Part shown: in pieces, positions 1 through 56,141 of the stretch
Numbering within the stretch: position 1 is the first letter of the stretch
Layout of the letters: every line of letters begins with the position of its first letter
NCBI GenBank assembly: GCA_000165345.1
Contig: CM000431.1
Location: 224,001 to 288,000 of the forward strand
Length of the DNA: 64,000 bases
Direction: 5' to 3'
Notes under the pieces: model-generated
The model's database searches: none
What the model saw: only the letters and a program-made list of their open reading frames with translations
What the model was told of the DNA's origin: nothing
Program-made: the position numbers and the translations under genes

Positions 1-29157
<29,157 letters not shown>

Positions 29158-53954: not shown

Positions 53955-54524
<570 letters not shown>

Positions 54525-54954
54525 TCTCTTAGATAATTCTACTTTTAAGTATAATGCCTAATTTAAGGCCTAGGAATCTAAAATTGAGTGTATTGAGAGC
54601 TATTTTCTCTCAATATGTACTACCAAAAGTAGTGAAATCTCTAATAAAGAATAGATTAAAATGTTTCCAATAAGTTACTTTTATTCACATGCTTTTATTT
54701 ACTCTTAAGTTTTCATCAAATATTCATATTAAACATATTTTTTTGGTCACCAGTTTCCCGCCTTAAAGTAGTTGTAGAAATAGGGGGAAAAATTACTGGT
54801 ATAATTATTCGAGCCAAAGAATAATGAACTATTAGAATTGACAATATTTTATTTATTTAAAATCTAATCTTACAATTTTATTAAATAACGCATTTTGCGG
54901 GTAATTGAATTTCTTTTAATGATATAACTACAAAATGTGAGCCTCCATATGTAA

Positions 54955-55026
54955 TCCCACGTAGTCTAGGGGCTAGGATACTCGGCTTTCACCCGGGCGA
55001 CCCGGGTTCGATTCCCGGCGTGGGAG
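54955..55026 (+). tRNA. tRNA-Glu (anticodon UUC)
   Basis: Manual cloverleaf. Acceptor is TCCCACG/CGTGGGA. D arm is GTCT-AGGGGCTA-GGAT. Anticodon stem is CTCGG/CCGGG with loop CT-TTC-AC. Variable region is CGAC. T arm is CCGGG-TTCGATT-CCCGG. Discriminator is G. It matches the eukaryotic tRNA-Glu pattern (TCCC..GTCTAG.GG.TAGGAT...CCCGGGTTCGATTCCCGG). Confidence 0.93.
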
Positions 55027-55028
55027 TG

Positions 55029-55032
55029 TTTT
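55029..55032 (+). terminator. T4 run 3 nt after tRNA-Glu (possible weak Pol III terminator)
   Basis: The sequence g-TG-TTTT-atcc follows directly after the discriminator base. Confidence 0.4.
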
Positions 55033-55150
55033 ATCCGTGAAGGAGGATTGCACCGCTGCCTGACTCCGATCGCACTGTTTAGCCCGCAGTGCGAGCTGTA
55101 GGAGTTCGGGCCTCGGTTTGGTCTGGGGAGAGGAGGTTCCACCGCGGATA
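55033..55150 (+). ncRNA. Candidate structured small RNA (about 118 nt, Pol III-like), family unassigned
   Basis: This is a GC-rich island in AT-rich intergenic DNA. A terminal stem pairs 55033-55039 (AUCCGUG) with 55143-55149 (CGCGGAU): 7 bp including one U-G pair. An internal hairpin pairs 55070-55077 with 55087-55094 (8 bp, 9-nt loop UUUAGCCCG). It is extended by 55059-55067 pairing with 55101-55109, with one mismatch. A T7 run follows immediately. The only ORF here (54973-55212, minus) overlaps the tRNA and looks spurious. Confidence 0.5.
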
Positions 55151-55151
55151 G

Positions 55152-55158
55152 TTTTTTT
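55152..55158 (+). terminator. T7 run, Pol III-type terminator after the candidate ncRNA
   Basis: The sequence ggata-g-TTTTTTT-aa follows directly after the closing stem. Confidence 0.5.
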
Positions 55159-55293
55159 AATGTATTTTTTGTGTCTTGAACTTTTATAGTTTAGATGAGT
55201 GTTTTCTAGCAATTTTTTATTTATATGAGAGAATAGTTGTTTTTTTGTTAAAACATAATAAGTGTTAATTAGTATGCTGATAGGAAAGATAGA

Positions 55294-56141
55294 ATGAAAA
55301 AAAGAAACGTCTTAATTGGAGTAACGGGGAGCGTTGCAGCAATAAAAATTCATGAATTTATAAAGAAATTAAAAGAAAAAGTTATAAGTAACAATATTGA
55401 AATAGAGATCAAAGTTGTTGCAACTGACTCAGCAAAAAACTTCCTCAATGGTTTAGCTTTAGATTTATTAGTAGATTGTCAAGATGAATTTGGTAATTGG
55501 AAGAGTATGGGGGACGATATTCCTCATATAAGCCTCAGGCAATGGGCTGATTTATATATTATTCTTCCTTTGTCGGCAAATACGTTGGCAAAACTATCTA
55601 ATGGGCTTTGTGACAATGTTTTGGTAAGTTAGCAAAAGTTGTGATTTATGGAGAGGTTGATAAGGTATGAAAATACAAGTTAATGAATACAACGAGTTAT
55701 ATTGTTTTGATATGGAAAATTCTATAAATTTACGAATATGAATAACTTTAACATTTCATAACAATATAAAGTTGTAATGGCAACACCTAAATATGCTAGA
55801 ATATTGCTATTTCGAAGCTTTTTAAACAAACATGTTTAAAGAGTGCATATAGTTCTTCTCCAATTAAAAATCTTGTTCATAACTAATTAACTGACTTAAT
55901 TCAGACTAATATTGCAAGAGCTTGGGATTTCAAGAAACCCATTATAGTTTGTCCCGCAATGAACAGTTTCATGTGGGAGCACCCAATTACTTTAACTCAA
56001 ATTAACATTCTTATCTCTTTTGGTTACAAAGTGGTATTCCCAATTGAAAAAAAGTTGGCATGTGGCGAATATGGGATGGGTGGAATGCAAGAAATTGAAA
56101 AAATTGTTGAACAAATTCTTCTTGAACTAAACTCATCCTAA
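55294..56141 (+). CDS. PPCDC: Phosphopantothenoylcysteine decarboxylase (flavoprotein, CoA biosynthesis), 2 exons
   Basis: Exon 1 is 55294-55623 (110 codons, donor TTG|GTAAGT). The intron is 55624-55904 (281 nt, acceptor TTCAG). Exon 2 is 55905-56141, in frame with the track ORF at 55959. The protein reads VLIGVTGSVAAIKI...HISLRQWADLYIILPLSANTLAKLSNGLCDNVL/TNIARAWDFKKPIIVCPAMNSFMWEHPIT...ACGEYGMGGM, which matches PPCDC motifs (G.TGSVAA.K, PAMN..MW.HP.T) from memory. Confidence 0.85.

What the first reader, a model, noticed from the sequence alone, without database searches (positions are those of the whole stretch)
54955..55158. tRNA-Glu followed directly by a GC-rich, highly structured, T7-terminated small-RNA candidate of unknown family
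Seven nt after the tRNA-Glu(UUC), on the same strand, a segment of about 118 nt (55033-55150) stands out as GC-rich in an AT-rich intergenic region.

Its ends pair (AUCCGUG with CGCGGAU). It contains an 8-bp hairpin (55070-55077 with 55087-55094), extended by a second helix (55059-55067 with 55101-55109). It is followed immediately by TTTTTTT, which is the layout of a Pol III transcript.

By eye it lacks several known signatures:
- the U6 ACAGAGA box
- an Sm site
- 5S-like ends
- terminal C/D boxes (the only CUGA, at 55060, is internal)
- an ACA box 3 nt from the 3' end

The tRNA is separated from it only by TGTTTT. The element could therefore be a read-through dicistronic product, or it could use the tRNA A/B boxes as its promoter. 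tRNA-linked small-RNA genes are known in plants and trypanosomatids.
Basis: partly seen in the sequence, partly recalled or inferred. Interest (0 to 1): 0.7.

Follow-up and report, generated by a model that had tools for sequence, protein, structure and literature searches.

The report
tRNA-Glu-linked structured small RNA gene
Directly behind a tRNA-Glu gene of Cryptosporidium parvum lies a GC-rich hairpin RNA that shares the tRNA's promoter and terminator, is kept at that spot in all 19 Cryptosporidium genomes examined although its sequence changes very fast, and matches no known RNA family.

Summary
tRNA-Glu(UUC) lies at 54955-55026. It is followed by TGTTTT, a 119-nt segment of 61% GC (55033-55151) and T7. 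This is the only GC-rich island in the 64-kb window, which is C. parvum.

I fetched the syntenic locus (ARF, tRNA-Glu, element, PPCDC-like flavoprotein) from 18 other Cryptosporidium assemblies, from C. hominis to C. muris and C. andersoni. In all 19:
- the tRNA is 72/72 identical;
- a roughly 6-nt spacer never has five or more T, and five species have no T-run there at all;
- a GC-rich (54-70%) hairpin of 59-163 nt follows, then T5-T8.

The element cannot be aligned between clades and diverges about 2.4 times faster than the flanking intergenic DNA. Its fold is nevertheless kept:
- compensatory pairs occur in every clade;
- the sense strand folds better than the antisense in 18 of 19;
- the 5' and 3' ends co-evolve (permutation p = 5e-5).

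Rfam gives no hit in the four species tested. No ortholog has a C box, a consistent ACA box or a telomere template.

Best reading: a dicistronic Pol III tRNA-sRNA gene whose sRNA is released by RNase Z. The closest analogue is Yarrowia tRNA-Trp-RUF70. Expression and function were not tested here.

The parts
54923..54928 (+). TATA-like box (TATAAC) at -32..-27 of the tRNA; presumed site of TFIIIB/TBP placement for the whole unit
   Evidence: TAT(A/T)A(C/A) sits at the same distance upstream of the tRNA in all 19 orthologous loci, while the sequence between it and the tRNA varies. Its function is inferred.
54955..55026 (+). tRNA-Glu(UUC) gene; leader cistron carrying the internal A and B box promoter
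   Evidence: ARAGORN; Rfam RF00005 at 57.8 bits; 72/72 identical in all 19 Cryptosporidium loci.
55027..55032 (+). 6-nt spacer TGTTTT; single-stranded trailer at the expected RNase Z site; a weak T4 stop at most
   Evidence: Spacers in the 19 loci are TGTTTT, TATTTT, TGTTTC, TATTTC, TATTTA, TAATTA, TGGTCT, TGGAAG and TATTGG. None has five or more T. It is unpaired in the fold of the precursor.
55033..55151 (+). 119-nt GC-rich (61%) structured RNA element, the second cistron
   Evidence: Composition; fold; orthologues of 59-163 nt at the same place in 19 loci; no Rfam family.
55033..55039 (+). 5' strand of the closing stem (AUCCGUG); pairs with 55143-55149 (CGCGGAU)
   Evidence: 7 pairs, 2 of them with compensatory C-G to U-A changes in chipmunk genotype I. 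The ends co-evolve across the genus.
55045..55055 (+). 5' strand of helix 2 (GGAUUGCACCG); pairs with 55114-55124
   Evidence: parvum G-C becomes A-U in C. hominis at one pair; U.G becomes C-G at two more.
55059..55067 (+). 5' strand of helices 3 and 4 (CCUGACUCC); pairs with 55101-55106 and 55109-55110
   Evidence: one compensatory pair.
55070..55094 (+). Apical hairpin: a 9-bp stem (55070-55078 with 55086-55094) and the loop UUAGCCC (55079-55085)
   Evidence: 100% of cells are paired across six sequences, with one A-U to U-A swap. The loop and its closing pairs are invariant in parvum, hominis, GCA_007210665.1 and chipmunk.
55124..55140 (+). Purine-rich segment UGGGGAGAGGAGG with a small hairpin (GGAG 55127-55130 with UUCC 55137-55140)
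   Evidence: Invariant in parvum, hominis and GCA_007210665.1. It is kept in the 64-nt natural deletion variant L006.
55143..55149 (+). 3' strand of the closing stem (CGCGGAU)
55152..55158 (+). T7 run; Pol III terminator of the whole tRNA-sRNA unit
   Evidence: A T5-T8 run follows the closing stem within 0-6 nt in all 19 loci.

Best explanation
This is a dicistronic RNA polymerase III gene.

Proposed mechanism:
1. The tRNA-Glu(UUC) gene supplies the only promoter: an upstream TATA-like box and internal A and B boxes.
2. Pol III reads through the 6-nt spacer and the GC-rich element, and stops at the T-run behind the element.
3. RNase Z cuts after the tRNA's discriminator base. This frees a hairpin RNA of about 120 nt (59-163 nt in other species).
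4. The RNA's paired ends and 3' oligo-U tail should make it stable. The tail is the usual La-binding end of Pol III transcripts.
5. Selection acts on the fold and on GC content, plus a few loop motifs within clades, far more than on overall sequence. I therefore take the product to be a genus-specific structural small RNA that works as an RNP, piggy-backing on a strongly expressed tRNA gene.

Shown here: the gene layout, its conservation across the genus, and the conservation of the RNA fold on the sense strand.

Inferred: co-transcription, RNase Z release, stability of the product and action in trans.
For: 1. Layout. tRNA, TGTTTT, a 119-nt element of 61% GC, then T7. This is the only GC island in 64 kb.

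2. Synteny. The same order (ARF, tRNA-Glu, element, flavoprotein) is found in 19 loci from C. parvum to C. muris and C. andersoni.

3. Terminator position. No spacer has five or more T, and five species have no T-run in the spacer. T5-T8 always follows the element. As a control, in 110 tRNA genes from metagenome contigs that share the tRNA's last 21 nt, the first T4 run lies at a median of 8 nt, and within 15 nt in 85 of 110.

4. Structure is kept.
- Parvum clade: 38 pairs, 96.9% of cells paired against 34-47% with slid partners. Five pairs carry compensatory changes; 0 of 500 shuffles reach that number.
- Other clades: 6, 3 and 5 compensatory pairs in muris/andersoni, bovis/xiaoi and canis/GCA_027243965.1.
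- MFE z-scores are negative in all 14 orthologues tested, from -0.3 to -5.2.
- The sense strand is more stable than the antisense in 18 of 19, by 11.6 kcal/mol on average, with many G.U pairs.
- In 16 of 19 MFE folds the first and last paired bases close the molecule.
- Cognate 5' and 3' ends pair better than non-cognate ends: -10.6 against -7.6 kcal/mol, permutation p = 5e-5, and p = 5.5e-4 with one sequence per clade.

5. GC of 54-70% is held against flanks of 16-42% in every species.

6. The tRNA's acceptor stem and the hairpin fold independently in the precursor, leaving the spacer single-stranded.

7. Precedent. Dicistronic Pol III genes led by a tRNA, with 4-7-nt spacers and a downstream RNA matured by tRNase Z, are documented. 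One example is the 70-nt RUF70 of unknown function (Acker et al. 2008, PMC2566860).
Against: - No expression data were available to me. A C. parvum sRNA-seq study reports 79 novel intermediate-size ncRNAs, but its tables are not held, and its text mentions no tRNA-linked RNA.
- In the parvum clade the spacer has T4, which may stop part of the transcription.
- Outside close relatives the sequences cannot be aligned. A covariance model of the parvum clade finds only L006 (E = 3e-4) and, weakly, C. felis (E = 5.8). Homology across clades therefore rests on position and architecture.
- The alignments are small (2-6 sequences), and RNAalifold picks structures that favour covariation.
- Some orthologues fold hardly better than shuffles (z = -0.3 to -0.9).
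- Nothing identifies a partner or a target.
Confidence: 0.68

Rival explanations
1. The hairpin is a cis-acting 3' trailer and not a gene product in its own right. It would be transcribed with the tRNA and would control tRNA-Glu maturation, or Pol III termination and recycling. For example, it could force the RNase Z pathway, or delay or gate 3' processing. It would then be degraded.
For: - The layout and the selection for structure are the same as in the main explanation.
- Overall sequence is free to change and length varies from 59 to 163 nt. That fits a role that needs only a stable hairpin.
- A natural 55-nt internal deletion is tolerated in L006.
Against: - Within the parvum clade, unpaired motifs are invariant while the stems under them vary. 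These are the apical loop UUAGCCC and the segment UGGGGAGAGGAGG. That is not expected if only a hairpin is needed.
- Ends closed by a stem plus an oligo-U tail are the build of stable Pol III RNAs.
- Pol III needs only the T-run to terminate (established knowledge). The 110 control tRNA genes do without such a trailer.
Confidence: 0.2
2. It is the decayed remnant of a second tRNA gene from an old tandem tRNA-tRNA unit, or a partial duplication of the tRNA-Glu 3' end. It would now be without function.
For: - The closing stem is 7 bp and is followed by one or two unpaired bases, like an acceptor stem.
- T-arm or B-box-like words (GGUUCC, GAUUCC, GAAUCC) lie 10-25 nt from the 3' end in parvum, L006, felis, L007 and L009. 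This was noticed after the fact.
- Tandem tRNA genes are the commonest Pol III dicistrons (PMC2566860).
Against: - ARAGORN and the Rfam tRNA model find nothing tRNA-like in the element in any species tested.
- A neutral relic in a genome whose intergenic DNA is 16-42% GC would not stay at 54-70% GC in 19 lineages while changing 2.4 times faster than its flanks.
- A neutral relic would also not keep compensatory pairs and co-evolving ends.
- A tRNA origin could be true and the RNA could still be functional today.
Confidence: 0.05
3. It acts as DNA rather than RNA. It would be a GC-rich, G-skewed block serving as a boundary, a nucleosome-positioning element or an R-loop or G-quadruplex element between the Pol III gene and the Pol II promoter of the downstream flavoprotein gene.
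For: - It is the only GC island in the region.
- G exceeds C on the sense strand in most orthologues.
- It always lies between the tRNA and the flavoprotein gene.
Against: - Compensatory base changes, G.U pairs that would be C.A mismatches on the other strand, and the sense/antisense asymmetry all point to RNA pairing.
- Co-evolution of the two ends has no explanation at the DNA level.
- The distance to the flavoprotein start codon varies from about 135 to about 700 nt.
Confidence: 0.04
4. It is a very divergent member of a known RNA class that Rfam cannot recognise: a snoRNA, Y RNA, vault RNA, telomerase RNA, MRP RNA or 5S-like RNA.
For: - Y and vault RNAs are also Pol III hairpins with closed ends and a variable middle.
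- Ciliate telomerase RNAs are Pol III transcripts of similar size.
- Few snoRNAs are known in Cryptosporidium (PMC9465071).
Against: - There are no Rfam hits at E <= 10 in four species.
- No C box (RUGAUGA) occurs in any of the 19, and there is no consistent ACA box.
- No hexamer of the (CCTAAA)n template occurs in any ortholog.
- 59-61 nt in the bovis clade is too short for MRP, P or 5S RNA.
- An MRP RNA candidate for C. parvum was reported in 2007; its position is not given in the text I read (PMC1796607).
Confidence: 0.03

Closest known systems
Yarrowia lipolytica tRNA-Trp-RUF70 and tRNA-5S rRNA dicistronic Pol III genes (Acker et al. 2008, PMC2566860)
   Same: - A leader tRNA gene provides the promoter.
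- The spacer is very short: 4-7 nt there, about 6 nt here.
- There is one T-run, after the second RNA.
- The second RNA of RUF70 is a roughly 70-nt RNA of unknown function found only behind one tRNA species.
- Maturation is attributed to tRNase Z.
   Different: - The organism is a fungus and the tRNA is Trp.
- RUF70 occurs in 13 copies, while only one copy of this element was found per locus fetched; whole genomes were not scanned.
- There is no sequence relation.
- The Cryptosporidium RNA varies about three-fold in length and evolves faster than its flanks.
- Co-transcription and the mature product were shown experimentally for RUF70, not here.
Plant tRNA-Gly(GCC)-snoR43 dicistronic genes (Kruszka et al. 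2003, as described in PMC2566860)
   Same: The unit is a tRNA followed by a small RNA. It is transcribed by Pol III from the tRNA promoter and cut by RNase Z.
   Different: The downstream RNA there is a C/D box snoRNA. None of the 19 orthologues here has a C box, and most have no CUGA at all.
Murine gammaherpesvirus 68 tRNA-pre-miRNA genes (cited in PMC2566860)
   Same: A Pol III tRNA-like leader is followed directly by one or two long hairpins and a T-run. C. muris and C. andersoni have two hairpin domains.
   Different: Those hairpins feed the miRNA pathway. Cryptosporidium lacks Dicer and Argonaute, and no miRNAs were found in it (PMC9465071).
tRF-1 / pre-tRNA 3' trailer RNAs (my own knowledge)
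   Same: The 5' end is made by RNase Z and the 3' end by Pol III termination in a U-run.
   Different: tRF-1 RNAs are unstructured and about 15-30 nt long. This trailer is 59-163 nt, GC-rich and folded, and it is under selection for its fold.
Plasmodium falciparum RUF6 GC-rich ncRNA family (PMC6974570, PMC11208047, PMC9670795)
   Same: An apicomplexan, Pol III-transcribed, GC-rich small RNA standing out in an AT-rich genome, with no relatives outside its genus.
   Different: By my recollection RUF6 genes have their own A and B boxes, number about 15 and lie among var genes. RUF6 is not linked to a tRNA. No RUF6 model in Rfam matched the element.
Y RNAs and vault RNAs
   Same: These are Pol III RNAs of about 80-140 nt. 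Their 5' and 3' ends form a closing stem, the middle part evolves fast, and the 3' end is oligo-U.
   Different: - They have their own promoters.
- Defining motifs are not seen here: the bulged Ro60-binding helix of Y RNAs, and the internal A and B boxes of vault RNAs.
- There are no Rfam hits.
- Whether Cryptosporidium has Ro60 or MVP was not tested.

Membership tests
Dicistronic Pol III tRNA-ncRNA gene | An intact leader tRNA gene with an internal promoter | tested here: met
   ARAGORN and Rfam tRNA at 57.8 bits. Identical in 19 species. Conserved TATA-like box near -30.
Dicistronic Pol III tRNA-ncRNA gene | A short spacer with no efficient terminator between the two cistrons | tested here: met
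   The spacer is 6 nt and never has five or more T. Five species have no T-run there. The parvum clade has T4, which may be leaky. Control tRNA genes have T4 at a median of 8 nt.
Dicistronic Pol III tRNA-ncRNA gene | A single T-run terminator directly after the second RNA | tested here: met
   T5-T8 lies within 0-6 nt of the closing stem in 19 of 19 loci.
Dicistronic Pol III tRNA-ncRNA gene | A common primary transcript cut by RNase Z, and a stable downstream RNA | not testable with these tools
   No RNA-seq data were available. The supplements of the sRNA-seq paper are not held.
C/D box snoRNA | A C box RUGAUGA near the 5' end and a D box CUGA near the 3' end, next to a terminal stem | tested here: not met
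   No RUGAUGA or UGAUG occurs in any of the 19 orthologues. CUGA is internal or absent. No Rfam snoRNA hit falls on the element.
H/ACA snoRNA | An ACA box 3 nt from the 3' end, after a hairpin with a pseudouridylation pocket | tested here: not met
   The 3' ends before the T-run are GAUAG, GAUGA, ACAGCC, UAAAC, AACCAC, AUUCC and others, with no consistent ANA box.
5S rRNA (as in Yarrowia tRNA-5S genes) | A three-way junction of about 120 nt that matches RF00001 | tested here: not met
   No 5S hit at E <= 10. Length ranges from 59 to 163 nt.
Telomerase RNA, ciliate-like Pol III type | A template complementary to more than one telomere repeat (TTTAGG in Cryptosporidium, from my own knowledge) | tested here: not met
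   No hexamer of any permutation of (CCTAAA)n occurs in any ortholog.
RNase MRP / RNase P RNA | A P4 pseudoknot formed by CR-I and CR-V, and a size of at least about 160 nt | tested here: not met
   No Rfam hit. The element is 59-61 nt in C. bovis, C. xiaoi and C. ryanae. RNase P RNA is already annotated, and an MRP RNA candidate was reported in 2007 (its position was not in the text I read).
tRNA or tRNA-like (tandem tRNA gene) | A cloverleaf recognised by tRNA models | tested here: not met
   ARAGORN finds one tRNA per locus. The Rfam tRNA model hits only the tRNA-Glu.
Y RNA | A conserved lower stem with a bulged C (the Ro60 site), and a Ro60 orthologue in the genome | tested here: inconclusive
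   No RF00019 hit, and the closing stem has no conserved bulge. The presence of Ro60 was not tested.
Vault RNA | Internal A and B boxes, and the vault proteins MVP and TEP1 | tested here: inconclusive
   No Rfam hit. B-box-like words occur in only some orthologues. A literature search for MVP in Cryptosporidium found nothing relevant.
pre-miRNA behind a tRNA (MHV68 type) | A hairpin processed by Dicer and loaded into Argonaute | tested here: not met
   The hairpin layout is similar, but Cryptosporidium lacks Dicer and Argonaute, and no miRNAs were found in it (PMC9465071). This rests on the literature, not on my own test.

The most novel reading that the evidence does not exclude
The element is a fast-evolving effector RNA and not a housekeeping RNA. 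It would be a Pol III hairpin comparable to adenovirus VA or EBV EBER RNAs, or to Plasmodium RUF6. It would act at the host-parasite interface or in lineage-specific gene control, for example by binding double-stranded-RNA sensors or chromatin factors. Its divergence, faster than that of the flanking DNA, would then reflect diversifying selection together with a co-evolving partner.

A second reading would also be new. It could be an RNA gene born from the second tRNA of an old tandem tRNA unit.
Probability: 0.1. Interest if true: 0.85.

Novelty: new variant of a known kind. Interest (0 to 1): 0.6.

Why it matters
Pol III genes with two different products are rare. Acker et al. 2008 list only tRNA-tRNA, tRNA-snoRNA, tRNA-miRNA, tRNA-5S and tRNA-RUF70.

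This would be, as far as my searches go, the first case described in an apicomplexan. It is kept across the 19 assemblies sampled, which span the genus from C. parvum to C. muris and C. andersoni.

It defines a Cryptosporidium-specific RNA that no Rfam model finds. Its pattern of evolution is unusual: the position, GC content and fold are fixed, yet the sequence turns over 2.4 times faster than neighbouring non-coding DNA.

Uses:
- a clear target for deletion by CRISPR and for RNA-protein pull-down;
- a test bed for Pol III termination and RNase Z processing in this parasite;
- a hypervariable marker next to an invariant tRNA, with 9 substitutions and a 4-nt insertion between C. parvum and C. 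hominis in 119 nt, which could serve species typing.

Tried and rejected
- **Rfam.** Gathering thresholds on the whole window, and E <= 10 on the element in C. parvum, C. muris and two unnamed species, gave only the tRNA and chance hits that overlap it.
- **5S rRNA.** I saw a resemblance by eye (CCGAUC..., GGGCCU...GG). It is rejected by the lack of a model hit and by the length range.
- **Telomerase RNA.** No template hexamer is present.
- **C/D and H/ACA snoRNA.** The boxes are absent.
- **K-turn.** GGA/GGGGA around helix 2 fits in parvum but not in chipmunk or L006, so I dropped it (by eye).
- **MRP-like CR-I.** GAAGUCC occurs in C. muris and C. andersoni. Rejected on size in other clades and because an MRP RNA candidate has already been reported.
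- **A shared loop motif, CYGYYUDGCCMGCRG.** It links the parvum clade with the gastric species and is found only in the elements among 247 kb. However, it was derived after the fact, and a 12-of-15 match between two such sequences is expected about once by chance. I kept it only as a lead.
- **Covariance model of the parvum clade.** It does not reach most other clades.
- **Literature.**
  - Full-text searches for stretches of the element's sequence found nothing.
  - Searches for a tRNA-linked or co-transcribed ncRNA in Cryptosporidium found nothing relevant.
  - The supplements of the sRNA-seq paper are not held.
- **Metagenome scans.**
  - A scan with a 30-nt tRNA word found no further Cryptosporidium loci.
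  - A scan with a 21-nt word gave only other organisms, which I used as a control.
Full report
**1. What is in the window**

ARAGORN finds one tRNA in the 64 kb: tRNA-Glu(UUC) at 54955-55026 on the + strand. Rfam confirms it at 57.8 bits and reports nothing else at gathering thresholds.

The sequence then reads TGTTTT (55027-55032), followed by a 119-nt stretch of 61% GC (55033-55151) and T7 (55152-55158).

The window as a whole is 29.8% GC. The only 80-nt windows that reach 55% GC are 54927-55164, which is the tRNA plus this element.

- AUCCGUG (55033-55039) with CGCGGAU (55143-55149);
- the apical hairpin 55070-55078 with 55086-55094;
- the helix 55059-55067 with 55101-55110.

The MFE is -51.4 kcal/mol, z = -2.2. 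In a fold of the whole 204-nt unit, the tRNA's acceptor stem and the hairpin form separately and the spacer stays single-stranded. The reverse-strand ORF 54973-55212 is an artefact of the mechanical ORF list.

**2. Organism and neighbours**

The element lies between an ARF GTPase gene (53973-54524, +) and an intron-containing PPCDC-like flavoprotein gene (from 55294, +).

The window is C. parvum. It is 100% identical over 6.5 kb to GCA_015245375.1 CP044420.1. The flavoprotein is 100% identical over the 110-aa exon-1 query to 'flavoprotein [C. parvum Iowa II]'. In that record the element is at about 282,067-282,185.

**3. Orthologous loci**

I fetched the syntenic locus from 18 further assemblies, using the exact ARF protein and homologues of the neighbouring SWIB, FtsJ and flavoprotein genes:
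- C. hominis UdeA01 and TU502, and a hominis-like assembly, GCA_045269125.1;
- GCA_007210665.1 (C. tyzzeri, if I recall the accession correctly);
- chipmunk genotype I, C. ubiquitum, C. canis and a relative of C. canis (GCA_027243965.1);
- C. felis, C. bovis, C. xiaoi, C. ryanae, C. muris and C. andersoni;
- four unnamed Cryptosporidium contigs assembled from SRA runs.

In all 19 loci:
- the 72-nt tRNA is identical;
- it is followed by a spacer of about 6 nt (TGTTTT, TATTTT, TGTTTC, TATTTC, TATTTA, TAATTA, TGGTCT, TGGAAG or TATTGG);
- then comes a segment of 59-163 nt with 54-70% GC, against 16-42% in the flanks;
- then a T5-T8 run.

No spacer has five or more T. In C. bovis, C. xiaoi, C. ryanae, C. 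muris and C. andersoni the spacer has no T-run at all. The only Pol III stop signal of the tRNA gene in those species is therefore behind the element.

As a control, I took 110 tRNA genes from metagenome contigs of other organisms that share the last 21 nt of this tRNA. Their first T4 run lies at a median of 8 nt, and within 15 nt in 85 of 110.

A TATA-like box, TAT(A/T)A(C/A), sits about 30 nt upstream of the tRNA in all 19 loci. Nothing comparable precedes the element.

**4. The fold is under selection, on the sense strand**

Parvum clade. In six sequences of the parvum clade, a 38-pair structure has 96.9% of cells paired, against 34-47% when the partners are slid by 1-3 columns. Five pairs carry changes on both sides, and 0 of 500 shuffles reach that number. 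Between C. parvum and C. hominis alone, one G-C becomes A-U and two U.G pairs become C-G in helix 2.

Other clades. RNAalifold finds further compensatory pairs:

| Pair of species | Compensatory pairs |
|---|---|
| C. muris / C. andersoni | 6 |
| C. bovis / C. xiaoi | 3 |
| C. canis / GCA_027243965.1 | 5 |

Stability. MFE z-scores are negative for all 14 orthologues tested, from -0.3 to -5.2. The sense strand folds better than the antisense in 18 of 19, by 11.6 kcal/mol on average, with 1-11 G.U pairs each. In 16 of 19 the outermost pair closes the whole molecule, starting 0-2 nt after the 6-nt spacer and ending 0-6 nt before the T-run.

Alignment-free test. The first 12 nt and the last 16 nt of the same ortholog pair better with each other than with the ends of other orthologues: -10.6 against -7.6 kcal/mol. 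The permutation p is 5e-5, or 5.5e-4 with one sequence per clade.

**5. The sequence itself turns over fast**

Between clades the elements cannot be aligned.

Over six close species pairs, the element has 93/580 mismatches (16.0%). The flanks -300..-41 and +1..+140 have 155/2346 (6.6%). The difference is significant in parvum against GCA_007210665.1, in muris against andersoni (22.8% against about 5%, p = 5e-8) and in the canis pair.

One unnamed species (L006) carries a natural 55-nt internal deletion. It keeps the closing stem and the 3' purine-rich part.

Within the parvum clade, unpaired columns vary more than paired ones (15/47 against 11/76). Two unpaired motifs are nevertheless invariant there: the apical loop UUAGCCC and UGGGGAGAGGAGG.

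A covariance model of the parvum clade recovers L006 (E = 3e-4). It also recovers C. felis weakly, at the exact syntenic spot (E = 5.8), but no other clade.

**6. What it is not**

- Rfam 15 gives no hit on the element at E <= 10 in C. parvum, C. muris and two unnamed species.
- None of the 19 orthologues has a C box. CUGA is internal or absent. The 3' ends show no common ACA box. No hexamer of the telomere-template repeat (CCTAAA)n occurs.
- The 59-61-nt forms exclude 5S, MRP and P RNA. RNase P RNA is annotated in C. parvum, and an MRP RNA candidate has been reported, though its position was not in the text I read.
- tRNA finders see nothing in the element.
- A miRNA-precursor role is unlikely, because the genus lacks Dicer and Argonaute (PMC9465071).

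**7. Most likely mechanism**

The layout matches the few known heterologous Pol III dicistrons: a leader tRNA gene, a spacer of a few nucleotides, a second RNA and one terminator. In those, the second RNA is freed by the tRNA 3' endonuclease RNase Z.

Acker et al. 2008 list tRNA-snoRNA (plants), tRNA-miRNA (MHV68), tRNA-5S and tRNA-Trp-RUF70 (Yarrowia). RUF70 is a 70-nt RNA of unknown function, and it is the closest analogue.

I therefore read the locus as a tRNA-Glu-sRNA gene. Its product is a closed hairpin with a 3' oligo-U tail. It is selected for stability and for a few clade-specific loops.

Shown: the layout, the genus-wide retention, and the conserved and co-evolving RNA pairing on the sense strand.

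Inferred: co-transcription, RNase Z cleavage, accumulation of the RNA and action in trans.

The main rival is that the hairpin is only a cis-acting trailer that governs tRNA-Glu maturation. I give this 0.2.

**8. Novelty**

No paper in the searchable library describes a tRNA-linked ncRNA in Cryptosporidium.

The sRNA-seq survey of C. parvum (Li et al. 2022) reports 79 novel intermediate-size ncRNAs, 43 of them intergenic and of unknown function. This RNA may be among them, or it may have been merged with the tRNA-Glu transcript. The tables are not held, so I cannot tell.

The gene organisation is a known kind. New here are the RNA family, its presence across the whole genus, and its mode of evolution. 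Another apicomplexan GC-rich Pol III RNA family, Plasmodium RUF6, shows that such RNAs can have regulatory roles. It is not related in sequence or in gene layout.

Noticed in passing
window 1-22000 (+): A tandem array of about 11 paralogous units. The period is about 1.86-1.98 kb and copies are 60-95% identical. Each unit has a long Thr-codon tract (ACT/ACA/ACC), for example 14099-14700. It looks like a cluster of secreted mucin-like paralogues.
   Followed up: no
window 54923-54928, and the same offset in L001-L023: A conserved TATA-like box, TAT(A/T)A(C/A), lies about 30 nt upstream of tRNA-Glu in all 19 Cryptosporidium loci. The 20 nt between it and the tRNA vary freely. This suggests that Cryptosporidium tRNA genes use an upstream element as well as the A and B boxes.
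   Followed up: partly
L006:4064-4127 (Logan DRR848573, unnamed Cryptosporidium close to C. parvum): A natural 'mini' version of the element, 64 nt long. About 55 nt, including the apical hairpin, are deleted. The closing stem and the 3' purine-rich part are kept. It shows which part is dispensable.
   Followed up: partly
window 55033-55151 against L022/L023:1372-1494: C. parvum and C. hominis differ at 9 positions plus a 4-nt insertion (GUAG) in this 119-nt element. The two C. hominis isolates differ from each other at 2 positions. This is a hypervariable marker next to an invariant tRNA.
   Followed up: partly
L011:4132-4294 (-) and L019:2948-3108 (+): In the gastric species C. muris and C. 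andersoni the element is 161-163 nt and folds into two hairpin domains. The 5' domain is much better conserved (GUCYGUCUGYCUUGCCAGCAG, UAGAGG, CCCAAAG) than the 3' domain.
   Followed up: partly
window 54973-55212 (-): A 79-aa reverse-strand ORF with a TTG start spans the tRNA and the element. It is a by-product of the GC-rich stretch and not a gene.
   Followed up: no
window 55294-56141 (+): The downstream PPCDC-like flavoprotein gene (Pfam PF02441) has an intron. Exon 1 reads through as a 112-aa ORF, and gene callers on some assemblies split it into two genes.
   Followed up: no
L044, L103, L112 and L108 (metagenome contigs of other organisms): Some tRNA-Glu genes in the control set, which share the same 3' end, are followed by another tRNA with no T-run between them, about 40 nt downstream in L044, L103 and L112 and about 10 nt in L108. 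They are tandem or arrayed tRNA genes.
   Followed up: no
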